A stretch of 29,284 bases of DNA. Origin: an uncultured Flavobacteriaceae bacterium. Its GTDB lineage: Bacteria > Bacteroidota > Bacteroidia > B-17B0 > Aurantibacillaceae. A program made the translations under genes and the position numbers. Location of the stretch: NCBI GenBank assembly GCA_964603125.1, contig CAZRUA010000041.1, positions 1-29,284 on the forward strand. The letters are read 5' to 3'. The notes below the pieces were generated by a model that saw nothing but the letters and a program-made list of their open reading frames with translations, was not told the origin of the DNA and did not search any database. Of the stretch, positions 17,971 to 28,742 are shown piece by piece. Each line of letters opens with the position of its first letter. The first letter of the stretch is position 1.

Positions 17971-17997
17971 AGCCACGTTAATAGCGTGGCTTTTTTA
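17971..17997. terminator. Bidirectional rho-independent terminator between nrdA and the convergent downstream gene
   Basis: agccacg-ttaatag-cgtggct forms a 7-bp GC-containing stem followed by ttttttatt. It also sits at the 3' end of the minus-strand gene 17995-19080. Confidence 0.7.
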
Positions 17998-19080
17998 TTG
18001 TGTGAATTGCAAAACAGTTGGATCATAGGTTTTATAAGATAGAACCTTAGAAATCTTTCTACCCTTATATTCAATTGTAATTCTGCTTGTGTCTTTAGAA
18101 TTACTAGACGGAAGTTTGCAACCAGCAAACCACGCATAATCGCGCAAATCCGCATAATGATACTCTCCTTCTTCTCCAGAACAATTTATTTCAATCAATC
18201 TATTCTTTGCGTCATATACAAAGTTTATCTTGGAACAATGATTATATTTTCCATTTATTGGTAATGAGTCCGCATCAAACCACTCTATACATTTAATCCT
18301 GTTGTTTTCATAAGTATGTAATTCGAGCGCTATGCCGTAATCATCTCCAATTAAATGACTAGTTGAGTCAAAATATCTCCTTTGAATTAACTTTTTCTGT
18401 GAATAAGTATTTATGTAACCAGACCAAGAGAATTGAATATCACAACCTAAAACTCCTGCCTTTCTATAAAACATTTCACTTACTAAACCAAAGTTCTTAT
18501 TATATTTTGTAACCCAATAATTAATTTTTGTTGTGTCATTTTTTTTAATCTGTCCCCTTACATCATAATTATTTTTAAAATACCAAAAAGATCCTTCACA
18601 AGTATCATTATTTGAAATGTTCTTATAATAAGTTTCACTGAATTTTTTTCCTCTCGTAAAATTAACTTCCTTACAAAACCCTGAAATATTTTCTTTGAGT
18701 TGACCAAGTGAATCGTAAAAAATTGTAGTTCTTTCAATTACCTTTCTTCTTTGAATAGCTCTATAAACCTTATAAGCGATTCCTTCATAATCACAAACTA
18801 GATGACCAAGTGTATCCATATAAGATTCCTTCCAACAACTATTCTTCTTATCCTTTTCTCGCACAACTTCCCATACAGAATTTCCATAGGAATATAATGG
18901 GACGCGTCTATTTGTCGAATCAAAACAAATTTCCTTTGATTTCGATTTACTCAACCAAATTCTTTCAATTGTACTTCCATTGTCTTCTCTAAATTTAATA
19001 TTCGTTCTTTGTGAGAATCCGATTTGACAGAAAGTCAAAACTAAAACAATGAATATTTTTAATAAAAACTTCATTATCAA
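17995..19080 (-). CDS. Secreted hypothetical protein, W/Y/C-rich with YD-repeat-like motifs
   Basis: Signal peptide MIMKFLLKIFIVLVLTFCQIGFSQ. The motifs FYDSLGQL and YDAKNRLIEI resemble YD/RHS repeats. Confidence 0.45.
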   Translation of the reverse strand: MIMKFLLKIFIVLVLTFCQIGFSQRTNIKFREDNGSTIERIWLSKSKSKEICFDSTNRRVPLYSYGNSVWEVVREKDKKNSCWKESYMDTLGHLVCDYEGIAYKVYRAIQRRKVIERTTIFYDSLGQLKENISGFCKEVNFTRGKKFSETYYKNISNNDTCEGSFWYFKNNYDVRGQIKKNDTTKINYWVTKYNKNFGLVSEMFYRKAGVLGCDIQFSWSGYINTYSQKKLIQRRYFDSTSHLIGDDYGIALELHTYENNRIKCIEWFDADSLPINGKYNHCSKINFVYDAKNRLIEINCSGEEGEYHYADLRDYAWFAGCKLPSSNSKDTSRITIEYKGRKISKVLSYKTYDPTVLQFTQ

Positions 19081-19140: not shown

Positions 19141-19397
19141 AACACGCTGCGAAACCCTTTTAAAATATAGTGATTCAAAGCTATCAGTTTCTAAGAACAC
19201 TGAAATAAAATTTAAAAAGACAAAAAAAATTTTTGCAGATAAAAAATTTAAATTACTTTTGCATCACAAATAAAAATTATAAACTAAAAAATTAAACGAA
19301 AGAAACAATGTTGGTGTTAAATTTACATACGAAACCTTAAACCGGAAACATTAGTACTATCAATACTTTCAGCCCGGTTTATTGCCGGGTTTTTTAT
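19141..19397 (+). repeat. Copy 1 of a diverged ~260-bp direct repeat: promoter-like -33/-7 elements, a ~130-nt A-rich transcript region, and an intrinsic terminator. Candidate sRNA or attenuator leader upstream of rtcB
   Basis: TTTG at 19232-19235 and TAcTTTTG at 19254-19261 match Bacteroidetes -33/-7 elements. A terminator gcccgg-tttattg-ccgggt plus a T-run lies at 19372-19397. The region is homologous to 21901-22185 (cgaaacccttttaaaatatag vs cgaaacacctttaaaataaag; ttttgcatcacaaataaaaatt vs ttttgcatcataaaatattaaaaat). Confidence 0.4.
19372..19397 (+). terminator. Intrinsic terminator ending repeat copy 1
   Basis: 5-6 bp GC stem (gcccgg/ccgggt) with a 7-nt loop, followed by ttttttatttg. Confidence 0.5.
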
Positions 19398-19619
19398 TTG
19401 TTATAATTGAAAACAACTTTTTGGGGAGTCGAAAAGTAACCGGAAAAAATCAAAATTATTTTATTAAAAATCTTAGGTAAGATTTTAGAATTGATTTTCT
19501 AATGTCAGTTCAAGCAGCATTCTCTTTTCAGGAAATGTATCGAGAACAAACTGAAAATCAATTCCGCTTAGTCGAATACATCGACATGGAAAAATATTGC
19601 CTAAACAAAACCAACAATC

Positions 19620-21023
19620 ATGGGAAAAAATAGATTGAAGGGAAAACATTTAAGGAAAATAGATTTCCCTTCGGACATAGCTAAAAGTTTAGCATTAAAT
19701 ATTATGACGAAACATTTTAAACATGTTTCAAACGAAGAAAAATTACAAATAATACAAAACGTTCTTTTAAATCCTGAACAATACTTAGAAGATGAACATC
19801 TAAAACCCTTGTCGATTGCCTTAGTTGGGAAGCCAAAAATGAAAACTGATTATGAAGTTCACATGTTAAAACACAGTGGTGATTTTACCATTTATGGTCT
19901 ACGTCATATCGGACAAAATGCAATTCAACAAATGGAAGCAGCGATGCGATTACCCATCTCGATGAAAGGAGCTTTAATGCCTGATGCTCATCATGGATAT
20001 GGTTTGCCAATCGGCGGTGTACTAGCAACAAATAACGCAGTAATCCCTTTTGGAGTAGGCCTGGATATTGGTTGTCGAATGGCTTTGAGTATTTACAAAC
20101 TTCCAGAAGATTACATTCAACGCAAGGAGTATGATTTACAAAAAGCATTGCGTAGATATACACATTTTGGAAATGATGGGACACTTGATTTTGAAGTAGA
20201 TCATGAAGTGCTTGAGCGCCCTGAATTTCAAGCCACTGAATTACTCCGAAGATTACATGGTAAAGCGTGGTTTCAACTAGGTTCATCAGGCACAGGAAAT
20301 CATTTTGTTGAATTTGGAAATGTAACAATTGCTCAAAACAATACATTGAATTTACAACCTGGGAATTACATTGGTTTACTATCTCACAGCGGTTCAAGAG
20401 GCATGGGTGCTGCCATAGCAGCAACTTATACTAAAATAGCAATGCAAAAATGCAAACTTCCGCGTGAAATGCAATCAATGGCTTGGTTAAGTTTAGATGA
20501 AGAAGCTGGTCAAGAGTATTGGTTATCCATGAACTTAGCGGGTGACTATGCAAAAGCCTGTCATGATGTGATTCACAAAAACCTTGAACGTGTAATGGGC
20601 TTAGAAGCTATATGCAAAGTTGAGAATCATCACAATTTCGCATGGAAAGAAATACACGACGGTCAAGAATTGATTGTACACCGAAAAGGCGCAACGCCAG
20701 CAAACAAAGGTGAATTCGGTATCATACCAGGAAGTATGAGCAGCAATGGATACATAGTAAGTGGTTTAGGATTACAGGGTTCAATTAATTCAGCATCGCA
20801 TGGGGCCGGCCGAAAAATGTCACGTAAAGAAGCAAGAGAGAGTATAACAAAATCTTCGATGACAAATTTATTAGCCGAACAAAGTGTGAAATTAATTGGT
20901 GGCAGCGTAGAAGAGGCTTCATTTGCTTACAAGGATATTGAGACTGTTATGAGCTGTCAACAAGACCTAGTAAAAATAGAAGGTTCATTCACTCCAAAAA
21001 TTGTAAGGATGAACAAAAGTTAA
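19620..21023 (+). CDS. rtcB: RtcB-family 3'-phosphate/5'-OH RNA ligase (PrfH-associated RtcB2-type)
   Basis: DAHHGYGLPIGG and GSSGTGNHFVEFG are metal and GTP-binding motifs. The His-rich core is typical of RtcB. It sits immediately upstream of prfH, as in the E. coli rtcB2-prfH pair. Confidence 0.85.
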   Translation: MGKNRLKGKHLRKIDFPSDIAKSLALNIMTKHFKHVSNEEKLQIIQNVLLNPEQYLEDEHLKPLSIALVGKPKMKTDYEVHMLKHSGDFTIYGLRHIGQNAIQQMEAAMRLPISMKGALMPDAHHGYGLPIGGVLATNNAVIPFGVGLDIGCRMALSIYKLPEDYIQRKEYDLQKALRRYTHFGNDGTLDFEVDHEVLERPEFQATELLRRLHGKAWFQLGSSGTGNHFVEFGNVTIAQNNTLNLQPGNYIGLLSHSGSRGMGAAIAATYTKIAMQKCKLPREMQSMAWLSLDEEAGQEYWLSMNLAGDYAKACHDVIHKNLERVMGLEAICKVENHHNFAWKEIHDGQELIVHRKGATPANKGEFGIIPGSMSSNGYIVSGLGLQGSINSASHGAGRKMSRKEARESITKSSMTNLLAEQSVKLIGGSVEEASFAYKDIETVMSCQQDLVKIEGSFTPKIVRMNKS

Positions 21024-21065
21024 AACGCAATCGGTAATAACACCAATGAAAACAAAAGCTCTTTC

Positions 21066-21111
21066 TTATGTCAGTTCGAGCTTGTCGAGAACAGAATAAG
21101 AAAGAGCTTTA
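21066..21111 (+). promoter_or_regulatory. Strong intercistronic hairpin between rtcB and prfH
   Basis: aagctctttcttat ... ataagaaagagctt forms a 14-bp perfect stem enclosing gtcagttcgagcttgtcgagaacaga. It is not followed by a T-tract. It shares the ATGTCAGTTCRAGC ... TCGAGAACA motif with 19494-19560. Confidence 0.45.
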
Positions 21112-21123
21112 AAAAATTAAAAA

Positions 21124-21774
21124 ATGGAAACAAAAATATTACAAATAACATCAGGTAGAGGCCCCGCAGAATGCTGTTTAGCTGTTGCATTGACCTTGAA
21201 AGAAATATTGAAGGAGGCTAAAGAAAATAATTTAGCATGTGAAGTAATTAACCGCACACCATATAACATAAACGGAACTTTAGCTTCCGCATCTGTTAAA
21301 ATAAGTGGGAAAAACATTTCTCCATTCATTAATTCTTGGCAAGGTGTATTAGGTTGGATTTGTCAAAGTCCTTTCAGAACGATGCATAAAAGAAAAAACT
21401 GGTTCATAGGAATTGAAGTCTACGACTTATCATCCACTTCACAATGGAGTGAAAAAGATGTTTACTATCAAACACTTCGATCTTCAGGTCCAGGTGGTCA
21501 AAACGTAAATAAAGTAGAAACAGCTGTAAGAGCCGTACACAAGCCTTCAGGCGTGCAGGTTTTAGCTAATGAATCTCGTTCGCAAATGCAAAATAAAAAA
21601 ATTGCGTTAGAGCGATTAAAAGAATTATTTATACAATGGCAATTAAACAATTTAAGAAAAACAGAAAAGCAACAATGGCAAAATCATAATTGTGTTGAAA
21701 GAGGTAATCCAAAAAGAATTTACAAAGGAATCAATTTCAAAAAAGAAAAAATTGGACGTAGTCGAATCAATTGA
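21124..21774 (+). CDS. prfH: Peptide chain release factor homolog RF-H (PrfH)
   Basis: GGQ motif in context (LRSSGPGGQNVNKVETAVRAVH). The N-terminal GPAECCLAV, WICQSPFRTMHKRKNWFIGI and C-terminal ERGNPKRIYKG all align with my recollection of E. coli PrfH. Length is 216 aa. Confidence 0.85.
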   Translation: METKILQITSGRGPAECCLAVALTLKEILKEAKENNLACEVINRTPYNINGTLASASVKISGKNISPFINSWQGVLGWICQSPFRTMHKRKNWFIGIEVYDLSSTSQWSEKDVYYQTLRSSGPGGQNVNKVETAVRAVHKPSGVQVLANESRSQMQNKKIALERLKELFIQWQLNNLRKTEKQQWQNHNCVERGNPKRIYKGINFKKEKIGRSRIN

Positions 21775-21900
21775 TAATAAAGGATTCCAAAGCAAATGAG
21801 AAATTAAAAATTAAAAACTAGCAAGTATTAAAAAATTAAAACGAAACATACAGAATTCAATTTTGATTTATAAAAAATAAAATTGAAATAATAAATTTAT

Positions 21901-22185
21901 AATAATTTTAAATAAGGCTCGAAACACCTTTAAAATAAAGCTCTTCAAGGCAGTATGTTTTTAGAAAAGAAAAATATTTAAAATTTATTTCATAAAATAT
22001 TTTTTCAATTCAAAAATTTGATTTAGTTTTGCATCATAAAATATTAAAAATAAAATGAAAAATAGTTTTACATATCGTCAAAAGTCAATCCTGATAGGGC
22101 ATGCGCCGTTATCATATTGCATGGGGTGGTAAAATTATTTTAAATAATAATTCTAAACCCCGATACGCTCGGGGTTTTTTTATGA
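21901..22185 (+). repeat. Copy 2 of the diverged direct repeat (promoter-like elements, ~145-nt transcript region, terminator), downstream of prfH and upstream of the Rnl5-like ATP-dependent ligase gene
   Basis: TTTG at 22005-22008 and TAgTTTTG at 22024-22031. A terminator ccccga-tacgc-tcgggg plus T7 lies at 22155-22181. Homologous to 19141-19397. Confidence 0.4.
22155..22181 (+). terminator. Intrinsic terminator ending repeat copy 2
   Basis: aaaccccga tacgc tcggggttt followed by tttttttatg. Confidence 0.55.
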
Positions 22186-22296
22186 AATAAAAAATGCGAG
22201 TTAGAGAAAATAAAATACAAAACCTGTTTAGTTCAGCCAGTAAATTACCGGCTTACATACTGCGGTTGCGGAAATAATTATGATTGTAAACAATTG

Positions 22297-22328
22297 TAAA
22301 ACCCGTAACCAAAAGTTTCGGGTTTTTT
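22297..22328 (+). terminator. Second tandem terminator-like hairpin upstream of the Rnl5-like ATP-dependent ligase gene
   Basis: aacccg ... cgggtt stem followed by tttttttatgaa. This is the same tail sequence as the 22155 terminator, so the ~145-bp unit is repeated in tandem. Confidence 0.45.
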
Positions 22329-22379
22329 TATGAACAAAAATTGCTAAGGTGTCTCAGTACCAAAGCATGTTAGAGGAAG

Positions 22380-22407
22380 CCTTCCATCAAATGGGTGGAA
22401 GGTTTTA
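22380..22407 (+). terminator. Third hairpin plus T-run immediately upstream of the Rnl5-like ATP-dependent ligase gene start
   Basis: ccttcc-atcaaatgggt-ggaagg followed by ttttat, about 30 nt before the ATG at 22438. Confidence 0.35.
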
Positions 22408-22437
22408 TAAAAAATAAAAGAAAGGAGAAAAAATAAA

Positions 22438-23439
22438 ATGAGGAAATTAGCTTCAATACAAAAAATTAAAAATATAGAACCAATCGAAGGTGCAGATTCA
22501 ATTATGAAAGCAAGTGTTTTAGGTTGGCAATTAGTAATTAGAAAAGATGAATTTAAAATTGGTGATTTATGCGTTTACTGTGAAATTGACAGTGTATTAC
22601 CCGATAAACCAGAATTTGAATTTATCCGTGCTAAAACTAATCGTATTAAAACTATAAAATTACGTGGTCAAATTTCACAAGGTATCTGCTTTCCATTATC
22701 AGTTTTACCAGAAGGTATAGAGATTGTTGAGGATTTAGACGTTACAGAAATAATTGGTGTAACAAAATTTGAACCGCCAATTCCTGCTAACTTAGCTGGT
22801 GAGATTAAAGGCTTATTTCCTTCATTCATGCCTAAAACAGATGAAACTAGGGTGCAAGTTTTACAACATGTTTTAGATCAATACAAAGGATTAACCTGTT
22901 ACATTGCTGAGAAATTAGATGGAAGCTCTGTAACTTATTACTTCAAAGATGGTGAGTTTGGAGTTTGTTCGCGGAATTTAGATATAGTTAAAAACGAAGA
23001 AAACTCAATGTGGAAATTTGCAATTGAGAACGATTTAGAACAAAAGTTAAAATCATTAAACAAAAACATTTGCTTACAAGGTGAAATAATTGGTGAGGGT
23101 ATTCAAAAAAATAAATACAAGTTAAAAGGTCAAACGGTTTTCTTTTTTAATGTATTTGATATTGATAAATATGAATACTTATCATTAAGCTACTTTAAGC
23201 AAATAATAAATGATTTGAACTTAAAGCATGTTCCAATTATTGAAGATCAATATGAGTTAACGAACAATATGGATGAATTAATTTTAAAATCTAAATTAAA
23301 GTCGACGTTAAACAAAGATACAATCGCTGAAGGTATTGTTATCAGGCCAACGACAGAGATGATTGAAAAACATAAATTACAAGGACGCTTGTCGTTTAAA
23401 GTTATCAATCCAGATTTTTTAATAAAATACGACGAGTAA
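22438..23439 (+). CDS. ATP-dependent RNA ligase, Rnl5-like (DraRnl/NgrRnl-type: N-terminal OB-like domain plus nucleotidyltransferase domain)
   Basis: Motif I KxDG (AEKLDGSSV), motif IV EGIVIR, motif III-like FFFNVFDI and a motif V-like RLSFKVINPD. The N-terminus MRKLASIQKIKNIEPIEGADSI ... GWQLV resembles the N-terminal domain of Deinococcus/Naegleria nick-sealing RNA ligases. Confidence 0.65.
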   Translation: MRKLASIQKIKNIEPIEGADSIMKASVLGWQLVIRKDEFKIGDLCVYCEIDSVLPDKPEFEFIRAKTNRIKTIKLRGQISQGICFPLSVLPEGIEIVEDLDVTEIIGVTKFEPPIPANLAGEIKGLFPSFMPKTDETRVQVLQHVLDQYKGLTCYIAEKLDGSSVTYYFKDGEFGVCSRNLDIVKNEENSMWKFAIENDLEQKLKSLNKNICLQGEIIGEGIQKNKYKLKGQTVFFFNVFDIDKYEYLSLSYFKQIINDLNLKHVPIIEDQYELTNNMDELILKSKLKSTLNKDTIAEGIVIRPTTEMIEKHKLQGRLSFKVINPDFLIKYDE

Positions 23440-23648: not shown

Positions 23649-23666
23649 TCCCGATAGCTATCGGGA
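23649..23666. repeat. 18-bp perfect palindrome TCCCGATAGCTATCGGGA (copy 1)
   Basis: Exactly self-complementary. An identical copy lies 83 bp downstream. Confidence 0.6.
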
Positions 23667-23672
23667 TTGCAG

Positions 23673-23761
23673 AAGGCACAATGCACTTGTGGCGGAAATG
23701 GTATACGCAACAGACTTAAACTCTGTTATGAATGTTGGTTCTCCCGATAGCTATCGGGACT
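23673..23761 (+). tRNA. tRNA-Leu(TAA)-like type-II tRNA-like gene with non-canonical T-arm region (possible pseudo-tRNA)
   Basis: Acceptor GCACTTG/CATGTGC with one T-T mismatch. D-arm GCG-(11 nt with GG)-CGC. Anticodon arm AACAGA/TCTGTT with loop CTTAAAC (anticodon TAA). The T-arm position is occupied by the 18-bp palindrome (23732-23749) instead of a GTTCRANYC loop. Confidence 0.3.
23732..23749. repeat. 18-bp perfect palindrome TCCCGATAGCTATCGGGA (copy 2), embedded in the Leu-like tRNA-like element
   Basis: Identical to the copy at 23649-23666. Confidence 0.6.
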
Positions 23762-23767
23762 ATCATG

Positions 23768-23854
23768 TGCACTAAGAGGAGAAATAATCGAGCAGGGCTC
23801 GAACTTGTTTGCTAAACAATGTGTCCGCCTAATGGTGGTTGAGTGTCGGGAACT
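23768..23854 (+). tRNA. tRNA-Ser(GCT)-like type-II tRNA-like gene with non-canonical D-arm and T-loop
   Basis: Acceptor GGAGAAA/TTTCTCC is perfect. A CTTGT/ACAAT stem carries the loop TTGCTAA (anticodon GCT). The variable arm is CCGCC-TAAT-GGTGG. The T-arm is TGAGT-GTCGGGA-ACTCA and lacks the TTC T-loop signature. Confidence 0.3.
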
Positions 23855-23868
23855 CATTTCTCCGCAAA

Positions 23869-23951
23869 GGAAGATAGCGACCAGTGGTGGTCAGGCAGAC
23901 TTGAAATCTGCAGCGGTCTGAAAGGACAGGGTTCGACTCCTATATCTTCCG
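23869..23951 (+). tRNA. tRNA-Ser(TGA)-like type-II tRNA with weak T-stem
   Basis: Acceptor GGAAGAT/ATCTTCC is perfect. Anticodon arm GCAGA-CTTGAAA-TCTGC gives anticodon TGA. The variable arm is GTCT-GAAA-GGAC. The T-loop TTCGACT is canonical but the T-stem has only 3 bp. The D-arm GACC-AGTGGT-GGTC has one extra nucleotide at each junction. Confidence 0.4.
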
Positions 23952-23982
23952 CAAGTATTAAATTAAAATTGTTCTTTAAACA

Positions 23983-24055
23983 CGATTTATAGTATAATGG
24001 ATAACACACCCGATTACGACTCGGGAGACTTAAGGTTCGAGTCCTTATAAATCGA
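23983..24055 (+). tRNA. tRNA-Arg(ACG)
   Basis: 73 nt. Acceptor CGATTTA/TAAATCG. Anticodon arm CCCGA-TTACGAC-TCGGG. T-arm TAAGG-TTCGAGT-CCTTA. The D-stem has one A-C mismatch. The gene is AT-rich, and CCA is not encoded. Confidence 0.65.
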
Positions 24056-24060
24056 CGAAA

Positions 24061-24134
24061 TGAGATATAGCTCAACAGGTAAGAGCAGGTGCCTTATACG
24101 CACAAGGCTATAGGTTCAAATCCTATTATCTCAA
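24061..24134 (+). tRNA. tRNA-Ile(TAT)
   Basis: 74 nt. Acceptor TGAGATA/TATCTCA (U1-A72). D-arm GCTC-AACAGGTAA-GAGC. Anticodon loop CTTATAC (anticodon TAT). T-arm ATAGG-TTCAAAT-CCTAT. One G-A mismatch closes the anticodon stem. Confidence 0.6.
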
Positions 24135-24143
24135 CAAATAAAT

Positions 24144-24216
24144 CGGTCTATAGCTCAGATGGCAGAGCACCGTCCTTTTAAGACGGGAGTCCTTGGTTCG
24201 AATCCAAGTAGGCCGA
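24144..24216 (+). tRNA. tRNA-Lys(TTT)
   Basis: Fully canonical cloverleaf. Acceptor CGGTCTA/TAGGCCG (one G-U). D-arm GCTC-AGATGGCA-GAGC. Anticodon arm CCGTC-CTTTTAA-GACGG. T-arm CTTGG-TTCGAAT-CCAAG. Confidence 0.8.
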
Positions 24217-24226
24217 CAAATAAAAA

Positions 24227-24299
24227 CGGGATGTATTTCAATTGGTAGAATACGTGTTCTGGAAACATGAGGTTGCAGGTTCGAGTCCTGCCATCCCGA
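24227..24299 (+). tRNA. tRNA-Pro(TGG)-like with C at position 33 and an A/U-rich 3-bp D-stem
   Basis: Acceptor CGGGATG/CATCCCG. T-arm GCAGG-TTCGAGT-CCTGC. Anticodon stem CGTGT/ACATG with loop TCTGGAA (C33, anticodon TGG). An alternative fold gives a 9-nt loop. Confidence 0.5.
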
Positions 24300-24304
24300 C
24301 GAAT

Positions 24305-24378
24305 GGTGAAATTAGTGTAATGGCAAACACAAAAGCCTGTGAAGCTTTTAATACAGGTTCGATTCCCTTATTTCACCC
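24305..24378 (+). tRNA. tRNA-His(GTG)-like (G-1 encoded) with weak T-stem
   Basis: G-1 plus GTGAAAT/ATTTCAC, with C73. D-arm GTGT-AATGGCAA-ACAC. Anticodon arm AAAGC-CTGTGAA-GCTTT. The T-loop TTCGATT is flanked by a 3-of-5 paired stem (ACAGG/CCCTT). Confidence 0.5.
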
Positions 24379-24381
24379 ATT

Positions 24382-24454
24382 GGACAAGTAGCAAACGTGG
24401 TGTATGCGCTGGACTGAAAATCCAGAGAAAGTGGTTCAACCCCACTCTTGTCCA
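24382..24454 (+). tRNA. tRNA-Phe(GAA)
   Basis: Acceptor GGACAAG/CTTGTCC. Anticodon arm CTGGA-CTGAAAA-TCCAG. T-arm AGTGG-TTCAACC-CCACT. 3-bp D-stem with an 11-nt loop and a 4-nt variable loop. Confidence 0.65.
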
Positions 24455-24521
24455 CAAAAATTATTAGTAAAGCAAAAGCTATCTGGCTAAAAAAGAGATA
24501 GTAAATAATTAAAACAAAAAA

Positions 24522-24857
24522 ATGAAAACAACTTTCGAATTCAGAAAAAAGTTTTTAGAAGGTAGAGATGATTCAGGAAGATTCATTGTAACATCATACC
24601 GAACTGGTAAGACGTATTTTATCGAACCTATTGGCCCTGATAGAGCCGCTGATTGGGGAAGTTACAATCCTTCAACAGGAAACATCGAAAACAAAAAAGG
24701 TTTTGATAAACATAGAGGTGCAATTGATGAAAAAGATTCTCTAATTACGAAGGAAAATGGATTCCTTGATATTAGATATTCGGGAGTAGGAGGATCACCT
24801 TTTAGTGTAATTGAAAAAATGGATGCTCAGTATCCCAACATCAATAAAATTCACTAA
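24522..24857 (+). CDS. Hypothetical 111-aa protein embedded in the tRNA array
   Basis: ORF with a proper ATG. I recognise no motif. It lies between tRNA-Phe and tRNA-Tyr and is followed by the hairpin gcggaatt ... aattccgc at 24869-24892. Confidence 0.45.
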   Translation: MKTTFEFRKKFLEGRDDSGRFIVTSYRTGKTYFIEPIGPDRAADWGSYNPSTGNIENKKGFDKHRGAIDEKDSLITKENGFLDIRYSGVGGSPFSVIEKMDAQYPNINKIH

Positions 24858-24868
24858 TGATACTTCTA

Positions 24869-24892
24869 AAAATAAAGCGGAATTTGAAAAAT
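24869..24892 (+). terminator. Hairpin after the 111-aa ORF (8-bp stem, no T-tract)
   Basis: gcggaatt-tgaaaaatt-aattccgc. Confidence 0.3.
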
Positions 24893-24905
24893 TAATTCCG
24901 CAATT

Positions 24906-24989
24906 GGGAATGCGCTAACGATGGTGAGTTAGACTGGTCTGTAACACCAGGGTCATTTGACTTAATAGGTTCGAATCCTATCATTCCCA
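24906..24989 (+). tRNA. tRNA-Tyr(GTA), type II
   Basis: Acceptor GGGAATG/CATTCCC. D-arm CTAA ... TTAG. Anticodon arm CTGGT-CTGTAAC-ACCAG. Long variable arm GTCA-TT-TGAC. T-arm ATAGG-TTCGAAT-CCTAT. Position 8 is C. Confidence 0.65.
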
Positions 24990-25034
24990 CAACAATTATC
25001 GTTTCAAGCCGAAATTGTTATATAGTTCTTTGAT

Positions 25035-26039
25035 TTAATAGTTTTTCAATGCGTCTTTAAATCGCTCTTGCATTTTAAGGCTTAATCTTCTTGGACTTAG
25101 CACTTTTACATGCTCACCATAACCGAGCAGTTCTCGTTCTAACTCAAAGTTCCAAATAACTTTAATAGAAAAGATTGTTCCATCATCTTCTTCTTTTAAT
25201 ACTTCTTGGGAAACGTGGAGTGGTTTTGTAATAATATATGGTGCATGTTCTTTAACAAACTTAAGCACTATGGTTTGGGCTCTTTGATTAATGTTTTTAG
25301 TTACTCCAATTGTATCGGCGTAATAATCATTAACATTAAAGTCAGGCTTTACATACTTCTCTGAGTTTAATTCCTGAATATTGAGTATTCTATCCAGAGC
25401 AAGATTCATAATCGTTTTATTCTTTCGAGTTGCACCAAGAATAAACCATCTATTACGATACTCTTTAAGCAAATACGGATAAAAAATAATTTGCTGAGGA
25501 ATACGAGCTTTAAAAGATTGATAAGAAATTTCAAGCGTTTTTTTGCTAATAATTGCCTTATGCAAAATATCGATATACTTTAAACCTTTCACGAGCACAT
25601 TCTTTTCAAACTCAATATAGGATTTACCTTTATGGCTTTGTTTGTAGAGTTTATCTTCAAGTCGAGTTACCATTCCGTTAAGCTCCTCAAAAAAACCAAA
25701 TGCTTTAAACTGCTTTAAAACATCAACTACTTCATTCAAAGTATTCATGTCTTGTTGAGTTAAAGGATTATTTGTGATACTGTAGTCTTTCTCGGCGTAA
25801 CTATAATACTTTTTATCACTTACAATAATTGGCGCATTGTACCCAAGCTTTTCGCTTCGCATATTATAAATATCGAGTTGTAAAGTTCGTCGACTAACGC
25901 CAGTAGTAATTCCTTCGTATTCATAAAGCGCATCAGAGCAAGCTTCCATAAGATCTTCTAATGTCCATTTACGAAAACGGTTTTGCAAACAGTTATCAAT
26001 TGTTTTATAACGAATAAGGGCTAATTTGTTTATTGACAT
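25035..26039 (-). CDS. WYL-domain transcriptional regulator (N-terminal HTH, central WYL, C-terminal extension)
   Basis: 334 aa. The WYL-domain signature RNRWFILGATRKNKTIMNLALDRILNI gives the W-F/Y-L triad and an (L/F)RLDRI motif. The N-terminal MSINKLALIRYKTIDNCLQNR is HTH-like. Confidence 0.65.
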   Translation of the reverse strand: MSINKLALIRYKTIDNCLQNRFRKWTLEDLMEACSDALYEYEGITTGVSRRTLQLDIYNMRSEKLGYNAPIIVSDKKYYSYAEKDYSITNNPLTQQDMNTLNEVVDVLKQFKAFGFFEELNGMVTRLEDKLYKQSHKGKSYIEFEKNVLVKGLKYIDILHKAIISKKTLEISYQSFKARIPQQIIFYPYLLKEYRNRWFILGATRKNKTIMNLALDRILNIQELNSEKYVKPDFNVNDYYADTIGVTKNINQRAQTIVLKFVKEHAPYIITKPLHVSQEVLKEEDDGTIFSIKVIWNFELERELLGYGEHVKVLSPRRLSLKMQERFKDALKNY

Positions 26040-26247: not shown

Positions 26248-26565
26248 ATGAATAAATATATAAGATTAAAAGAAGAGTTAGAAAAAATAGGAATAGGTAA
26301 AATGAAATGCTTTGGAAACTCAATGCTTCCAATTTTAAAAAGCGGCTCATTGCTAACCTTTAAAAAAGAAAATGATTACAAAGTAAATGATATTGTGTTT
26401 TGTAAAGTGAAAGGGAGATTCATCGATGCGCACCTAATTACAAAGATTGATGCAAACAGAGGGTATCTGATAGCAAACAATCATGGTTATGAAAATGGTT
26501 GGACAAAAATAATATATGGAAAAGCCGTATACAGTGAATTTAAGAATGAAAGTAAAAAACTATAA
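26248..26565 (+). CDS. S24-family (LexA/UmuD-like) peptidase domain protein, stand-alone
   Basis: GNSMLP matches the G-[DN]-S-M-x-P catalytic Ser motif of S24/S26 peptidases. A downstream Lys (KVKGRF) could serve as the general base. Only 105 aa, so the peptidase domain alone. Confidence 0.45.
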   Translation: MNKYIRLKEELEKIGIGKMKCFGNSMLPILKSGSLLTFKKENDYKVNDIVFCKVKGRFIDAHLITKIDANRGYLIANNHGYENGWTKIIYGKAVYSEFKNESKKL

Positions 26566-26641
26566 TTGACAAAAGCTCATCCGCCGCGATGGAGTTGAGC
26601 ACCTGCCGATTTTAGAATCGGCATTAATCGGAAGGAAGTAG

Positions 26642-26659
26642 TCCCTATAGCTATCGGGA
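26642..26659. repeat. Third copy of the 18-bp palindrome, with one mismatch (TCCCTATAGCTATCGGGA)
   Basis: 17 of 18 identical to the copies at 23649 and 23732. It lies in the ORF-free region 26566-27610. Confidence 0.5.
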
Positions 26660-26873
26660 GAATAATATATTAACAATTGGTTAGCCAAATATGGCGCACC
26701 AGATAGATGTAAAATTGTTGCTATGCTCTTGTTAAAGCGTAGTTAGTATAAGGAGTGGTTAAAGGCCACAGCTCGATAACAATAAGGGCAAAGTTTGTAA
26801 AAGCCTATACGTTACATAGCATCTATCAAAGTACTGGTTTAATAAATGGAATAAATCCCATTGAAACCTAAAA

Positions 26874-26942
26874 ACATTTCAGGCTATGGCAGCCAATTGC
26901 TCTCCAAAAGCAAAGGACAACGTTCGATTCGTTGGAAATGTG
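26874..26942 (+). tRNA. tRNA-Trp(CCA)-like with shortened D-arm
   Basis: Acceptor ACATTTC/GAAATGT is perfect. Anticodon arm TTGCT-CTCCAAA-AGCAA gives anticodon CCA. T-arm CAACG-TTCGATT-CGTTG is canonical. The D-arm GGCT-ATGGC-AGCC is irregular. Total length 69 nt. Confidence 0.35.
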
Positions 26943-27201
26943 CCAATAGAATAATAGCAGCTAGGGCAAAGCCTTGTTTAAAACGTAGGAAATTCCCGTT
27001 ATTATTCTAAAAACTTAAAACATTGTTCATTGAAAAACAAAATACTGTTCGGAAGAACAAAAAATCTTCCTCGTGCCAGAGGAAGCGCGATACATAAACA
27101 AAACAATGCCTTGTTGTGGGTTTAAAACGCCCCATAGTATTGTACCAGTAGGAATCAATATACTGCAGCGCCATGTTTAGGGTATTGCTCATGTTGGGGT
27201 C

Positions 27202-27359
27202 AAGGGTTCAATTCCCTTTTTGTTCACAAGGACAAATAGCTCAGTTGGTTAGAGCACAACGCTTAGGTTACGGGTTCGAGTCCCGTCACGATTTCGCTCG
27301 TGTAACTCAATGGTAGAGTAATGGACTGAAAATCCATGCGTAGAAGTTGACTTACTTCT
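27202..27359 (+). pseudogene. String of degenerate tRNA-like modules: a 3' T-arm-plus-acceptor fragment, a D-arm-plus-T-arm module lacking an anticodon arm, and a tRNA-Phe(GAA)-like copy lacking a 3' acceptor strand
   Basis: 27202-27226 is AAGGG-TTCAATT-CCCTT followed by TTTGTTC. 27230-27293 is GGACAAA-TA-GCTCAGTTGGTTAGAGC, 13 nt, ACGGG-TTCGAGT-CCCGT. 27296-27359 is GCTCGTG-TA-ACTC-AATGGTA-GAGT-A-ATGGA-CTGAAAA-TCCAT followed by AGAAG-TTGACTTA-CTTCT. The junctions form hairpins: TTTGTTC/GGACAAA and CACGA/TCGTG. Confidence 0.3.
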
Positions 27360-27610: not shown

Positions 27611-28714
27611 ATGATACAAAGAGTAAAAGTTGATGCCTGGAAAAAAGGCTTGGTAATTAAAAACAACAATTTAATTGATGTTTTAAGTGAAGGTACATAC
27701 TGGTTATCTGCAAGTGTAGCTGTAATTAATTATGATATGGCTAAACCATTTGTTGCGCCAATTAACCTTAACATTTTGATGAAAAATCAAAAATTTGCAG
27801 ATGCGGTTAAAATAGTAAACGTAGCCGACAATGAAATAGCATTGCGCTATGAAGGAGATACATTTGTTGAAGTATTAACCCAAGGTAAATACCTCTATTG
27901 GGAAGGTTTGGTAGAACACAAAATAATTGCAATTGACTTGAGTGTTGTGGATATTGATGTTGGCATAGATAAAGCAATACTTACACGTAAAGAGCTTGCT
28001 CCATACATACGCACTTTTGTTATAGAACCTAATGAAAAAGCAATTGTTTATATTGATGGTAAGTTCAACAAAATTGTTGAAGCAGGTTCTTACAGCTATT
28101 GGAAAAACAATACTAACATAGCCATAACAAAAGTTGAAACACGAACCATGCAAATGGAAGTTGCTGGTCAAGAAATACTGACAAAAGATAAGGCCGTAAT
28201 ACGACTAAACTTTTACTTGCAATACAATGTTGTTGACGCTGTTAAAGCAATTTTAAACAACAAGGAGTACGAAAAACAATTGTATGTTTTAATACAGCTT
28301 GCTTTACGTGAATTTGTTGGTTCCATGACCTTAGATGAGCTTTTAGAGAAAAAAGAAAATGTATCTGATTACATATTGGATTCAACTGCTCGAAAAGTTT
28401 CATACTTGGGTGTATTAATAAAAGGTTGTGGTATACGTGATATTATTTTACCTGGTGATATGAAGGAAATAATGAATCAAGTATTGATTGCAGAGAAAAA
28501 AGCCCAAGCTAACACAATTATGCGTCGTGAGGAAACTGCCTCAACACGTAGCTTGCTAAATACTGCAAAGCTAATGGAAGACAATGCGATGTTGTTTAAG
28601 TTAAAAGAAATGGAATATGTAGAAAAGATTGCAGAGAAGATAAATACTATTTCATTATCAGGTGGTTCACAAATTGTGGATCAGCTAAAACAAATATTTG
28701 TCTCTAATAAATAG
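27611..28714 (+). CDS. SPFH (band 7 / stomatin-prohibitin-like) domain protein with ~170-aa N-terminal extension
   Basis: The C-terminal half carries an SPFH-domain pattern (KDKAVIRLNFYLQYNVVD ... REFVGSMTLDELLEKKENVS ... IRDIILPGDMKEIMNQVLIAEKKAQANTIMRREE). Confidence 0.65.
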   Translation: MIQRVKVDAWKKGLVIKNNNLIDVLSEGTYWLSASVAVINYDMAKPFVAPINLNILMKNQKFADAVKIVNVADNEIALRYEGDTFVEVLTQGKYLYWEGLVEHKIIAIDLSVVDIDVGIDKAILTRKELAPYIRTFVIEPNEKAIVYIDGKFNKIVEAGSYSYWKNNTNIAITKVETRTMQMEVAGQEILTKDKAVIRLNFYLQYNVVDAVKAILNNKEYEKQLYVLIQLALREFVGSMTLDELLEKKENVSDYILDSTARKVSYLGVLIKGCGIRDIILPGDMKEIMNQVLIAEKKAQANTIMRREETASTRSLLNTAKLMEDNAMLFKLKEMEYVEKIAEKINTISLSGGSQIVDQLKQIFVSNK

Positions 28715-28742
28715 ATAAAACCCTCATTTCAATTTGGAAGTG

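What the first reader, a model, noticed from the sequence alone, without database searches (positions are those of the whole stretch)
19620..21774. RtcB-PrfH pair: ribosome rescue coupled to 16S rRNA repair
The 216-aa ORF has the GGQ motif and strong similarity along its whole length to E. coli PrfH as I recall it (GPxECCLAV, WICxSP..RxxHxRKNWF.GI, TLRSSGPGGQ.VNK...AVRA.H, ERGNP.R.). It sits directly downstream of an RtcB-family ligase gene. In E. coli this pair has been shown to release peptides from ribosomes whose 16S rRNA was cut at the decoding centre by colicin E3-type ribotoxins, and then to religate the rRNA. Seeing the pair in a Bacteroidetes-like background, bracketed by repeat elements, supports the idea that it moves as a cassette. 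A perfect 14-bp-stem hairpin lies between the two genes, so stoichiometry may be tuned by partial termination or RNA processing.
Basis: partly seen in the sequence, partly recalled or inferred. Interest (0 to 1): 0.7.

Follow-up and report, generated by a model that had tools for sequence, protein, structure and literature searches.

The report
RtcB–PrfH ribosome rescue-and-repair operon
The window really carries the two-gene system that frees and re-seals ribosomes whose RNA has been cut by bacterial toxins; the system is already known, but here the ligase comes from a different lineage than in E. coli and a small upstream peptide probably acts as a stall sensor.

Summary
rtcB (19620-21023) and prfH (21124-21774) are intact and adjacent, and a perfect 15-bp hairpin lies between them.

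- **PrfH.** It passes the curated PrfH model. It keeps GGQ and most residues of the E. coli pocket for the cut 16S rRNA end. Its best solved relative is Capnocytophaga PrfH.
- **RtcB.** All ten E. coli RtcB catalytic residues checked are conserved. It is not an RtcB2: it scores on the RtcB2 models exactly as E. coli RtcB1 does. It belongs to a long (467 aa) Bacteroidota clade. One branch of that clade is followed by prfH (28 of 80 genomes). The sister branch sits with WYL, Band-7 or Ro60 genes.
- **Repeats.** The "bracketing repeats" are two Bacteroidetes-type promoter/leader copies plus a small dispersed REP-like motif. They are not cassette ends.
- **Hairpin.** It is specific to this lineage and has no T-run.
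- **Leader.** A 10-codon uORF lies upstream of rtcB in all ten distinct close-relative leaders. Its stop codon pairs with the 5' arm of a terminator. The Pseudomonas armZ-PA5470 (RtcB-like/PrfH) operon uses the same stall-sensing logic.
- **Missing gene.** Close relatives carry an FtsH-like gene after rtcB-prfH (after rtcB in two that lack prfH). The window lacks it.

Verdict: a new member of a known kind, in an RNA-repair island.

The parts
19221..19270 (+). Bacteroidetes-type promoter of the rtcB-prfH operon (TTTG at 19232-19235, TACTTTTG at 19254-19261); copy 1 of the 50-nt direct repeat
   Evidence: Direct repeat D3. The motif is conserved upstream of rtcB in 8 aligned close relatives. The promoter consensus TTTG...TAnnTTTG is from my own knowledge of Bacteroidetes promoters.
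19308..19340 (+). 10-codon upstream ORF (MLVLNLHTKP, stop TAA): candidate leader peptide
   Evidence: It has exactly 10 sense codons in all 10 distinct leaders. Substitutions at Leu, Asn, Lys and Pro codons are synonymous, and 7 of the 10 end in Lys-Pro-stop.
19338..19345 (+). Antiterminator strand A: the uORF stop codon plus 5 nt (UAAACCGG)
   Evidence: In each of 10 leaders it is the only 8-nt window upstream of the terminator that is fully complementary to the terminator 5' arm and loop. L088 covaries (UAGGCCGG with CCGGCCUA).
19371..19395 (+). Intrinsic terminator of the leader (stem 19371-19391 plus a T run); 19374-19381 (CCGGUUUA) is antiterminator strand B
   Evidence: Terminator scan; folds; covariance model R1 matches at 71-115 bits in the close lineage only.
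19470..19585 (+). Structured 5' UTR. It holds hairpin H2 (19470-19483), a 12-bp-stem hairpin (19488-19564) carrying the REP-like motif 19504-19547, and hairpin H4 (19571-19585).
   Evidence: Fold. H2 and H4 are present with different stem sequences in relatives. The REP-bearing hairpin is absent from relatives.
19620..21023 (+). rtcB: 3'-phosphate/5'-OH RNA ligase, long Bacteroidota form (A-type, PrfH-linked), not RtcB2
   Evidence: Pfam PF01139 at 258 bits. Catalytic residues D149 C152 N227 H228 H256 R260 H338 H394 R398 R402 are all conserved. It is below the RtcB2 cut-offs. Tree.
21055..21109 (+). Intercistronic hairpin: 15-bp perfect stem, with the REP-like motif 21070-21092 in its 25-nt loop; no U-tract follows
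   Evidence: L001 and L084 have a 13-bp hairpin at the same spot without the loop insert.
21124..21774 (+). prfH: release-factor homologue for ribosomes damaged at the decoding centre, with a short C-terminal tail (216 aa)
   Evidence: TIGR03072 at 234.7 bits, above 166.65. PDB 9mor CgPrfH E 6e-60 and 7sa4 EcPrfH E 8e-46. GGQ at 124-126. The equivalents of E. coli pocket residues R83, H86, R88, K89 and N90 are R85, H88, R90, K91 and N92.
21965..22194 (+). Second promoter/leader (copy 2 of the 50-nt repeat), a 25-codon ORF at 22055-22132, and a terminator at 22155-22177, upstream of rnl
   Evidence: It is conserved just downstream of the M41 gene in L084 and L001.
22438..23439 (+). ATP-dependent RNA ligase of the DRB0094 type (N-terminal OB fold plus RNA_ligase domain)
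   Evidence: TIGR02306 at 193 bits, above 151. Pfam PHA02142 and RNA_ligase. The same gene lies near rtcB-prfH in L085, L086 and L088.
23777..24990 (+). tRNA-like pair (23777-23954) followed by a tRNA array: Arg-ACG, Ile-TAT, Lys-TTT, Pro-TGG, His-GTG, Phe-GAA, then (after a 111-aa ORF) Tyr-GTA
   Evidence: Arrays recur next to this RtcB clade.
25035..26039 (-). WYL/WCX-domain regulator
   Evidence: Pfam. It is linked to B-type RtcB in relatives.
27222..27359 (+). tRNA-like / YrlA-like RNA elements between the WYL gene and the Band-7 gene
   Evidence: YrlA hit at 39.7 bits, E 5e-6, below the gathering score; weak tRNA hits. The same pattern occurs in L084, L060, L065 and L046.
27611..28714 (+). 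SPFH/Band-7 protein, partner of B-type RtcB in relatives. No RtcB follows it in the window before the contig ends.
   Evidence: Pfam.

Best explanation
The region is a functional rtcB-prfH operon of the Bacteroidota type. [quoted passage not shown]

Proposed mechanism:
1. A colicin-E3/CdiA-type ribotoxin cuts 16S rRNA between A1493 and G1494. This was shown in E. coli, not here.
2. PrfH enters the empty A site, recognises the 3'-phosphorylated A1493 and releases the peptide through its GGQ motif. This was shown for E. coli and Capnocytophaga PrfH. Here it is inferred from family membership and conserved pocket residues.
3. RtcB reseals the 2',3'-cyclic/3'-phosphate and 5'-OH ends. The ligase chemistry is inferred from the complete catalytic residue set. 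The 16S target is inferred only from conserved, translationally coupled linkage to prfH, because this ligase is not an orthologue of the characterised RtcB2.
4. Expression is probably switched on by failing translation. Transcripts from the promoter near 19260 carry a 10-codon uORF. Its stop codon plus 5 nt can pair with the 5' arm of an intrinsic terminator. A ribosome that reaches the stop codon masks this antiterminator, so transcription ends. Ribosomes that are absent, or stalled at or near the start codon, leave it free, and transcription reads through into rtcB-prfH. This step is inferred from comparative sequence only.

The PrfH tail stops where the Capnocytophaga mRNA-channel helix begins. 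I therefore expect rescue of damaged ribosomes only, not of non-stop ribosomes.
For: - **PrfH identity.** TIGR03072 at 234.7 bits against a 166.65 cut-off. RF2, RF1 and ArfB models score far lower. The best solved relatives are PrfH chains 9mor and 7sa4. The protein is 41% identical to EcPrfH, with GGQ and the equivalents of R83, H86, R88, K89, N90 and ERGNP conserved.
- **RtcB.** Pfam hit at 258 bits. All ten E. coli RtcB catalytic residues checked are conserved.
- **Linkage.** prfH follows this RtcB clade in 28 of 80 Bacteroidota genome loci. Gaps are -4 to +11 nt in 19 of 27. PrfH-linked members form one subclade that contains the window.
- **Leader.** Promoter, 10-codon uORF and terminator are conserved in 10 distinct leaders.
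- **Antiterminator.** In each leader the only 8-nt window complementary to the terminator 5' arm starts at the stop codon. L088 shows a compensatory change.
- **Precedent for the logic.** P. aeruginosa PA5471.1 is a 13-aa leader peptide about 250 bp upstream. It controls armZ (RtcB-like, PRK09588 cluster) and PA5470 (peptide release factor) by stall-sensing attenuation (PMC3516279, PMC13041342).
- **Where damaged ribosomes stall.** ColE3-cut ribosomes pile up at start codons (PMC13166195). That would leave the uORF stop region uncovered.
- **Function of the system.** PMC9304027 and PMC12829566.
Against: - The ligase fails both RtcB2 models (144 against 272 bits; 172 against 407). It scores the same as E. 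coli RtcB1 and is nearer RtcB1 by BLAST and by clade HMM.
- In E. coli, RtcB1 cannot repair the 30S subunit (PMC9304027). A 16S target for this ligase is therefore not guaranteed.
- No Bacteroidota RtcB has been assayed in the papers I read.
- Two PrfH contact residues differ from E. coli (H85 to M87; R52 to A54).
- The leader is confined to one narrow lineage. Its covariation rests on one fully compensated pair, seen in one sequence.
- Nothing is known about transcription-translation coupling in this organism.
- All close relatives have an FtsH-like gene after rtcB-prfH (after rtcB in two that lack prfH); it is missing here. This copy may be a reduced version.
Confidence: 0.8

Rival explanations
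1. The ligase repairs tRNA, or RNA broadly, rather than 16S rRNA. PrfH clears ribosomes stalled for any reason. The pair is then one arm of a general response to tRNA damage that also uses the spare tRNA array, the ATP-dependent ligase and the Band-7/tRNA-like module.
For: The ligase is RtcB1-like by score. Its sister subclade sits with Band-7, Ro60, WYL and tRNA-like RNAs. tRNA arrays, Thg1-like and Rnl genes recur next to rtcB-prfH in relatives. In Anabaena, rtcB and a tRNA array are co-induced by translational stress (PMC8421152).
Against: The PrfH pocket for the 3'-phosphate of A1493 is conserved. Tight coupling of prfH to this subclade in 28 loci argues for a shared substrate. EcPrfH acts only on damaged ribosomes (PMC9304027).
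Confidence: 0.25
2. PrfH here is a dual-function PrfH-CT like the Capnocytophaga protein. It would also rescue intact non-stop ribosomes, as ArfB does.
For: Its closest solved relative is CgPrfH. N50, a hallmark of PrfH-CT, is conserved. The tail 205-216 holds five basic residues.
Against: The protein ends at residue 216. It lacks equivalents of CgPrfH R218, K222, R223 and K226 and the helix that fills the mRNA channel. It is 216 aa, whereas PrfH-CT proteins are 225-250 aa. L001 and L084 also have short tails, so this is not a sequencing error.
Confidence: 0.12
3. The intercistronic hairpin is a regulatory element that sets the RtcB:PrfH ratio, by partial termination or by acting as an mRNA processing or stability site.
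For: The hairpin is very stable. Stable hairpins of unrelated or only partly related sequence occupy the same gap in L001/L084, L085 and L090.
Against: No U-tract follows it. Nineteen of 27 PrfH-linked loci have gaps of -4 to +11 nt with no room for a hairpin. L086 has none. The window's loop carries a dispersed REP-like motif that is also found upstream of rtcB and in viral contigs. That points to insertion of a repeat rather than a tailored regulator.
Confidence: 0.25
4. The promoter, uORF and terminator form a stand-alone small-peptide or small-RNA gene. They do not control rtcB, which would have its own promoter downstream.
For: The terminator lies 225 nt before the rtcB start codon. Further conserved hairpins fill that interval. 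A second, similar promoter + small ORF + terminator unit (21965-22194) has no clear antiterminator.
Against: The unit is always found directly upstream of rtcB and nowhere else in 91 sources. No convincing promoter motif lies between the terminator and rtcB (my inspection). The stop-codon/terminator complementarity is specific and covaries. The Pseudomonas operon has the same layout.
Confidence: 0.2

Closest known systems
E. coli RtcB2-PrfH (ATCC 25922; PMC9304027, PMC9223846, PMC13166195)
   Same: The gene order is rtcB then prfH. PrfH is 41% identical, with GGQ and the pocket for the 3'-phosphate of A1493 conserved. The expected function is the same: peptide release from ColE3/CdiA-cut ribosomes, then religation of 16S rRNA.
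   Different: The ligase is not an RtcB2. It fails TIGR03073 and PRK09588, is 31% identical, has about 75-95 extra N-terminal residues, and has RtcB1-like motifs. There is a 100-nt gap with a hairpin instead of overlapping genes. A leader uORF lies upstream.
Capnocytophaga gingivalis PrfH-CT (PDB 9mor/9mq4; PMC12829566) and its neighbouring RtcB
   Same: Same phylum. It is the closest solved PrfH (E 6e-60; aligned 1:1 over residues 1-212). N50 is conserved. PrfH-RtcB pairing in Flavobacteriia/Bacteroidota is already catalogued there (SSN cluster 1a).
   Different: The window PrfH ends at residue 216 and lacks the basic C-terminal helix (to residue 231) that gives CgPrfH its non-stop rescue activity.
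P. aeruginosa PA5471.1 leader peptide - armZ (PA5471, RtcB-like) - PA5470 (peptide release factor) operon (PMC3516279, PMC13041342, PMC12057347)
   Same: A short leader ORF (13 codons there, 10 here) lies about 250-280 nt upstream of an RtcB-family gene followed by a release-factor homologue. Complete translation favours a terminator, and stalled ribosomes give read-through.
   Different: Different phylum, no sequence similarity in the leader, and an RtcB2-type (PRK09588) ligase there. ArmZ has also been co-opted as the MexZ anti-repressor. The window's attenuator is a three-strand design in which the stop codon itself is part of the antiterminator. It is untested.
Band-7/b7a-tRNA-RtcB and Rsr(Ro60)-Y RNA-RtcB repair systems (Burroughs & Aravind 2016, NAR, from my memory; cited in bioRxiv 10.1101/312249)
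   Same: The window carries a WYL regulator, YrlA-like/tRNA-like RNAs and a Band-7 gene 4-8 kb downstream. The sister (B-type) RtcB clade is linked to exactly these genes in 22 of 80 loci. L084 and L090 carry both modules.
   Different: In the window no RtcB follows the Band-7 gene before the contig ends. The RtcB studied here belongs to the PrfH-linked branch.
Anabaena trn tRNA array co-regulated with rtcB under translational stress (PMC8421152)
   Same: A tRNA array sits in the same neighbourhood as rtcB. The proposed role is as a back-up tRNA supply when translation is attacked.
   Different: Different phylum and regulator (direct repeats at the promoter). No PrfH is involved there. Co-regulation in the window is untested.

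Membership tests
PrfH (peptide chain release factor H, TIGR03072 / IPR017509) | Scores above the curated equivalog cut-off, and better than on RF1, RF2 or ArfB models | tested here: met
   234.7 bits against a 166.65 cut-off; prfB 105.3, prfA about 80, ArfB 48.9
PrfH (peptide chain release factor H, TIGR03072 / IPR017509) | GGQ motif present, RF domain 1 absent, length about 200-250 aa | tested here: met
   GGQ at 124-126. The 216-aa protein aligns to RF2 residues about 111-316 only.
PrfH (peptide chain release factor H, TIGR03072 / IPR017509) | Pocket residues that bind the 3'-phosphorylated A1493 (EcPrfH R83, H86, R88, the Arg of ERGNP, the G-P loop) and h18 contacts K89 and N90 | tested here: met
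   R85, H88, R90, K91, N92, G13-P14 and ERGNP are conserved. H85 to M87 and R52 to A54 are not.
PrfH (peptide chain release factor H, TIGR03072 / IPR017509) | Encoded directly downstream of an RtcB-family gene | tested here: met
PrfH (peptide chain release factor H, TIGR03072 / IPR017509) | Releases peptide only from ribosomes cut at the decoding centre | not testable with these tools
   Needs a peptide-release assay
PrfH-CT subfamily (CgPrfH type) | Basic helical C-terminal tail; length 225-250 aa; residues equivalent to K215-K226 | tested here: not met
   The protein ends at residue 216, followed by TGA TAA. L001 and L084 also have short tails.
RtcB superfamily (PF01139) | Pfam domain above the gathering score and the full catalytic set (metal ligands Asp/Cys/His, the His nucleophile for GMP, Arg residues) | tested here: met
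   258 bits against 27; D149 C152 N227 H228 H256 R260 H338 H394 R398 R402
RtcB2 (PrfH-associated RtcB of Proteobacteria; TIGR03073 release_rtcB / PRK09588) | Scores above the curated cut-offs of the RtcB2 models | tested here: not met
   Window 144.3 and 171.7 bits against cut-offs 271.8 and 407. Controls: EcRtcB2 618/643 and EcRtcB1 143.9/173.2.
RtcB2 (PrfH-associated RtcB of Proteobacteria; TIGR03073 release_rtcB / PRK09588) | Closer to EcRtcB2 than to EcRtcB1 | tested here: not met
   BLASTP gives 170 bits to RtcB1 and 104 bits to RtcB2. The clade HMM gives 223 and 130 bits.
RtcB2 (PrfH-associated RtcB of Proteobacteria; TIGR03073 release_rtcB / PRK09588) | Conserved operon with prfH | tested here: met
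   28 of 80 loci, forming one subclade
RtcB2 (PrfH-associated RtcB of Proteobacteria; TIGR03073 release_rtcB / PRK09588) | Ligates 16S rRNA cut at A1493/G1494 in 30S subunits but not cleaved tRNA | not testable with these tools
   Needs an in vitro ligation assay
Leader-peptide transcription attenuator (PA5471.1-armZ type) | Short conserved translated ORF upstream of the operon | tested here: met
   10 codons in all 10 distinct leaders, with synonymous third-position changes
Leader-peptide transcription attenuator (PA5471.1-armZ type) | Intrinsic terminator between the leader ORF and the gene, with a mutually exclusive alternative pairing that depends on ribosome position | tested here: met
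   Terminator at 19371-19395. The stop+5 window is the only complementary 8-mer in 10 of 10 leaders, and L088 is compensated. The evidence is thin: one fully compensated pair.
Leader-peptide transcription attenuator (PA5471.1-armZ type) | Read-through induced by ribosome stalling | not testable with these tools
   Needs a reporter or Northern experiments
Intrinsic terminator (for the intercistronic hairpin) | G+C-rich stem followed by a U-tract on the transcribed strand | tested here: not met
   The stem is A/U-rich and is followed by AAAAAATTAAAAAA. The terminator scan does not call it.
Mobile cassette bounded by repeats | Terminal repeats or target duplication flanking both genes, with a recombinase or transposase | tested here: not met
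   The repeats are promoter/leader copies conserved in place and a REP-like motif, one copy of which lies between the genes. No mobility gene is found in the window.
Band-7/b7a-tRNA-RtcB system | Band-7 gene with an adjacent tRNA-like RNA and an adjacent RtcB | tested here: inconclusive
   Band-7 (27611-28714) and tRNA-like/YrlA-like RNAs are present. No RtcB follows within the 570 nt left before the contig ends, whereas in L084 it starts 80 nt after Band-7.

The most novel reading that the evidence does not exclude
PrfH has been coupled twice, independently, to non-orthologous RtcB lineages: RtcB2 in Proteobacteria and the long A-type RtcB in Bacteroidota. In both cases a short leader peptide that senses stalled ribosomes switches the operon on. 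In this lineage the pair would be the stall-induced core of a wider translation-damage island that includes a spare tRNA array, an ATP-dependent ligase, Band-7/Y-RNA-like modules and, in relatives, an FtsH-like protease and a Thg1-like enzyme. 16S-specific repair would then have evolved twice, from a tRNA-type ligase each time.
Probability: 0.3. Interest if true: 0.55.

Novelty: new member of a known kind. Interest (0 to 1): 0.35.

Why it matters
The pair itself adds little. RtcB-PrfH is characterised in E. coli, and its presence in Flavobacteriia/Bacteroidota is published.

Three things are useful to the field.

1. The Bacteroidota partner ligase is as far from RtcB2 as housekeeping RtcB1 is. 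The rule 'PrfH partner = RtcB2 = 16S-specific' cannot simply be transferred. An assay of this ligase would show whether 16S specificity arose twice.
2. A conserved uORF-terminator leader gives a concrete, testable account of how a ribosome-repair operon senses ribosome damage. It parallels the Pseudomonas armZ-PA5470 leader, which the PrfH papers I read do not discuss.
3. Close relatives carry an FtsH-like protease gene after rtcB-prfH (directly after rtcB in the two that lack prfH), with Thg1-like, Rnl and tRNA-array neighbours. These are candidate accessory factors, for example for disposal of the released peptides.

Tried and rejected
- **Phage origin.** Rejected. Megablast of 24.8 kb against phage genomes gave no match. 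The left 18 kb carries housekeeping genes: gatB, a sigma factor, msrAB, carbonic anhydrase and nrdBA. GC content is uniform at 0.29-0.40.
- **Known RNA family for the hairpin or leader.** None. Rfam at E<=1 gave only a chance 'Trp_leader' hit at 27 bits over the leader terminator.
- **Leader in distant PrfH-linked or B-type loci.** Not found with covariance model R1. Two viral-contig pattern hits (L092, L093) lack rtcB and do not match the model.
- **Consensus structure of the 5' UTR downstream of the terminator.** RNAalifold failed because the hairpins are too divergent for MAFFT. I only inspected them by eye.
- **Formal pair counting of the antiterminator.** Abandoned. L088 stays one column out of register in both alignments. 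It was replaced by a per-sequence complementarity scan.
- **Leader-2 as a second attenuator.** No clear alternative pairing.
- **Remnants of the M41 or Thg1 genes in 21600-22500.** None.
- **Burroughs & Aravind 2016.** Not held, so it is cited from memory and through bioRxiv 10.1101/312249.
- **Literature search for a leader peptide at rtcB-prfH.** It found nothing for Bacteroidota, but it led to the Pseudomonas precedent.

Full report
**What is in the sequence**

ORF listing gives a 467-aa ORF at 19620-21023 and a 216-aa ORF at 21124-21774, both on the + strand. The first hits Pfam RtcB at 258 bits. The second passes the NCBIfam equivalog for PrfH (TIGR03072, 234.7 bits, cut-off 166.65). It scores much lower on RF2 (105), RF1 (80) and ArfB (49).

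Against solved structures, the two best PrfH matches are PrfH chains: Capnocytophaga gingivalis PrfH 9mor (E 6e-60, aligned 1-212 to 1-212) and E. coli PrfH 7sa4 (E 8e-46). RF2 follows at about 1e-19. I fetched an intact E. coli rtcB2-prfH operon.

The EcPrfH residues that bind the 3'-phosphorylated A1493 and helix 18 are R83, H86, R88, K89, N90, the Arg of ERGNP and the G-P loop (PMC9304027). They correspond to R85, H88, R90, K91, N92, ERGNP and G13-P14 here. H85 and R52 are replaced by M87 and A54.

The intergenic hairpin is real. It has 15 perfect base pairs (21055-21069 with 21095-21109), a 25-nt loop and dG -26.3 kcal/mol, and none of 200 shuffles folds as well.

**Genomic background**

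The window is a whole NCBI contig. Its left 18 kb carries ordinary chromosomal genes: gatB, a sigma factor, msrAB, carbonic anhydrase, an ABC ATPase and nrdB/nrdA. It has no phage match, and GC content is uniform. Relatives of the RtcB are all Bacteroidota. Promoter-like elements match the TTTG...TAnnTTTG consensus of that phylum (my own knowledge).

**The ligase is not an RtcB2**

The window RtcB falls far below the cut-offs of both RtcB2-type NCBIfam models: TIGR03073 release_rtcB at 144.3 against 271.8, and PRK09588 at 171.7 against 407. As controls, E. coli RtcB2 scores 618 and 643. E. coli RtcB1 (the rtcBA ligase) scores 143.9 and 173.2, the same as the window protein. PrfH-linked RtcBs of Chitinophaga and Reichenbachiella and a Band-7-linked RtcB score the same again.

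BLASTP gives 170 bits to RtcB1 and 104 bits to RtcB2. An HMM of 77 clade members scores RtcB1 at 223 bits and RtcB2 at 130. All ten E. coli RtcB catalytic residues I checked are conserved (D149, C152, N227, H228, H256, R260, H338, H394, R398, R402). The Bacteroidota proteins share an N-terminal extension of about 75-95 residues that both E. coli proteins lack.

In a neighbour-joining tree the Bacteroidota clade splits in two. One subclade holds nearly all PrfH-linked members, including the window. The other holds members linked to WYL, SPFH/Band-7 or TROVE/Ro60 genes.

Linkage to prfH is nevertheless conserved. It occurs in 28 of 80 genome loci, with gaps of -4 to +11 nt in 19 of 27. In the papers I read, the Bacteroidota ligase appears only in a model figure and was not assayed.

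**The PrfH tail**

Tian et al. 2026 describe a PrfH-CT subfamily (225-250 aa, mostly Flavobacteriia). Its basic C-terminal helix (contacts K212-K226) lets CgPrfH also rescue intact non-stop ribosomes. The window protein keeps N50, a PrfH-CT hallmark. However, it ends at residue 216 with two stop codons. L001 and L084 end similarly at 213 aa. Other relatives are either 204-206 aa or 230-241 aa. I infer that it rescues damaged ribosomes only.

**Close relatives and what the window lacks**

I examined loci whose RtcB is 77-87% identical (L001, L002, L084-L091, L094-L100). They consistently show rtcB-prfH followed by an approximately 680-aa AAA+/Peptidase_M41 (FtsH-like) gene that overlaps or abuts the prfH stop. 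Two loci, L002 and L091, have rtcB followed by M41 without prfH. The window has no such gene and no remnant of it. The sequence found just after the M41 stop in L084 reappears about 120 nt after the window's prfH.

Around the operon, relatives carry the following:
- a Thg1-like gene;
- the same DRB0094-type ATP RNA ligase as the window's 22438-23439;
- tRNA arrays;
- WYL, Band-7 and a second (B-type) RtcB (L084), or Ro60 (L090);
- defence genes: a CD-NTase with TIR-STING gene pair in L088, OLD-TOPRIM plus UvrD in L090, and reverse transcriptases in L001, L085 and L094.

Flanking genes differ from locus to locus. That fits an island-like history, but the window has no mobility gene.

**The repeats**

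The 50-nt direct repeat (19221-19270 and 21991-22040) is two promoter/leader units. Each is followed 100-130 nt later by a terminator (19371-19391 and 22155-22177). Both keep their positions in relatives. The first lies upstream of rtcB. The second lies downstream of M41 and upstream of the tRNA array in L084 and L001.

The other repeat, GTCAGTTCRAGC...TCGAGAAC, occurs at 19504-19547 and 21070-21092. Each copy sits in the apical loop of a long perfect hairpin, and L001 lacks both copies. Near-identical copies (GTCAGTTCGAGCG[CT]AGTCGAGAAC) occur in unrelated viral contigs, once in tandem. It is therefore a small dispersed REP-like element, not a cassette boundary.

**The hairpin in relatives**

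L001 and L084 have a 13-bp hairpin at the same place. Its outer and inner parts match the window stem and its middle differs on both arms. The window version is that hairpin extended, with the REP-like motif in its loop. L085 and L090 have unrelated stable hairpins there, L088 has a weak one and L086 has none.

No U-tract follows the window hairpin, and the terminator scan does not call it. A role in mRNA processing or stability is possible but unproven. It is not a general feature of PrfH operons.

**A candidate stall-sensing leader**

In the close lineage the region upstream of rtcB aligns well. It contains the promoter and, about 45 nt later, an ORF of exactly 10 sense codons (window: MLVLNLHTKP). 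Leu, Asn, Lys and Pro codons carry synonymous changes, and 7 of the 10 distinct leaders end in Lys-Pro-stop. An intrinsic terminator follows.

The stop codon plus five bases (UAAACCGG, 19338-19345) is complementary to CCGGUUUA (19374-19381), the 5' arm and loop of the terminator. Without the 3' arm, every sequence folds into this pairing, at -8.6 to -15.5 kcal/mol. In each of 10 leaders it is the only fully complementary 8-mer upstream of the terminator. L088 carries UAGGCCGG with CCGGCCUA, which is one fully compensated pair plus one G.U to G-C change. The window and L002 have A-U where the others have G.U. A covariance model finds the leader only in this lineage.

The logic is as follows. 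A ribosome that completes the uORF sits on the antiterminator strand, the terminator forms, and the operon stays off. Ribosomes that are scarce or stalled at or near the start codon leave the strand free and allow read-through. ColE3-cleaved ribosomes accumulate at start codons (PMC13166195).

This is the mechanism established for P. aeruginosa. There the 13-aa leader PA5471.1, about 250 bp upstream, controls armZ/PA5471 (an RtcB-like protein of the PRK09588 cluster) and PA5470 (a predicted peptide release factor) in response to ribosome stalling (PMC3516279, PMC13041342, PMC12057347). The regulatory idea is therefore not new. Here it appears in another phylum, with an unrelated leader sequence and a non-orthologous ligase. 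I rate this part at about 0.55.

**Wider island**

Downstream of prfH lie, in order:
- the ATP-dependent ligase;
- two tRNA-like units and seven tRNA genes, including an unusual Ile-TAT;
- a WYL regulator on the opposite strand;
- an S24-like ORF;
- YrlA-like/tRNA-like RNAs (39.7 bits, below the gathering score);
- a Band-7 gene, another tRNA-like gene and a Y-RNA-like element.

This matches the Band-7/'b7a-tRNA'-RtcB systems predicted by Burroughs and Aravind (cited in bioRxiv 10.1101/312249). The exception is that no RtcB follows Band-7 before the contig ends. tRNA arrays recur beside this RtcB clade. An rtcB-tRNA array connection is known in Anabaena (PMC8421152).

**Verdict**

The finding is a correct identification of a known system. 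It is a new member of the Bacteroidota RtcB-PrfH group, reduced by loss of the FtsH-like third gene and carrying a short-tailed PrfH. The points worth carrying forward are the non-RtcB2 nature of the partner ligase and the conserved uORF-terminator leader.

Noticed in passing
window 21775-21964, compared with L084 7634-9658 and L001 11465-13486: Close relatives carry an approximately 680-aa AAA+/Peptidase_M41 (FtsH-like) gene after rtcB-prfH, overlapping or abutting the prfH stop (directly after rtcB in L002 and L091, which lack prfH). The window has none and shows no remnant. This third gene may dispose of the peptides that PrfH releases.
   Followed up: partly
window 21965-22194: A second promoter + small ORF + terminator unit (25 codons, 22055-22132, MKNSFTYRQKSILIGHAPLSYCMGW) lies upstream of rnl. 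It is conserved, with synonymous changes, downstream of M41 in L084 and L001. I saw no clear antiterminator, and its function is unknown.
   Followed up: partly
window 19504-19547 and 21070-21092; L101, L102, L106, L108: A small dispersed REP-like motif, GTCAGTTCGAGCG[CT]AGTCGAGAAC. In the window both copies sit in the apical loops of long perfect hairpins, as if the motif inserts into hairpin loops. It also occurs in unrelated viral contigs, once in tandem.
   Followed up: partly
window 23983-24455, 24906-24990; L001 14316-14899; L084 10355-11212; L037, L044, L058, L061: tRNA arrays recur beside A- or B-type RtcB in Bacteroidota. Phe-GAA is almost always present, and the unusual Ile-TAT occurs in the window, L001 and L058. 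They may be spare tRNAs against anticodon nucleases.
   Followed up: partly
window 23777-23954: An approximately 180-nt element holding two tRNA-like units. One resembles a Ser-UGA tRNA with a long variable arm (weak tRNA-Sec hit, 34.6 bits). It is conserved at 77-82% identity next to the arrays in L084, L085, L086, L088 and L001. ARAGORN does not call it.
   Followed up: partly
window 26566-27610 and 28753-29037: About 1 kb of non-coding sequence between the S24-like ORF and the Band-7 gene holds YrlA-like/tRNA-like units (27222-27359) and a doubtful tRNA-Trp (26874-26945, called by ARAGORN only). After Band-7 lie a tRNA-Gln-like gene and a Y-RNA-like element (28858-29025). That element matches the WYL-Ro60/Band-7 spacers of L047, L050, L061, L066 and L088.
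   Followed up: partly
window 27611-29284: In relatives (L084 and many B-type loci) a second RtcB starts 80-300 nt after the Band-7 gene. In the window none appears in the 570 nt before the contig ends. It has been lost, moved, or lies beyond the contig.
   Followed up: partly
L001 7336-8823, L085 227-1702, L094 7926-9482: A reverse-transcriptase gene (RVT_1, about 495-518 aa) lies directly upstream of the rtcB leader in several relatives. Other defence genes (a CD-NTase with TIR-STING gene pair in L088, OLD-TOPRIM plus UvrD in L090) and NAD-salvage/Tpt1 genes (L098, L001) lie nearby. None of these is in the window.
   Followed up: no
window 17995-19080 (-), 24522-24857 (+), 26248-26565 (+): Three ORFs lie around the island: a 361-aa ORF with no family hit, a 111-aa ORF inside the tRNA array with no family hit, and a 105-aa S24-peptidase-like ORF next to the WYL gene.
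   Followed up: no
window 23649-23673, 23742-23766, 26642-26666: Three copies of a palindromic TCCCGATAGCTATCGGGA motif lie in the non-coding stretches of the island. L090 has a similar CCGATAGCTATCGG inside its rtcB leader.
   Followed up: no
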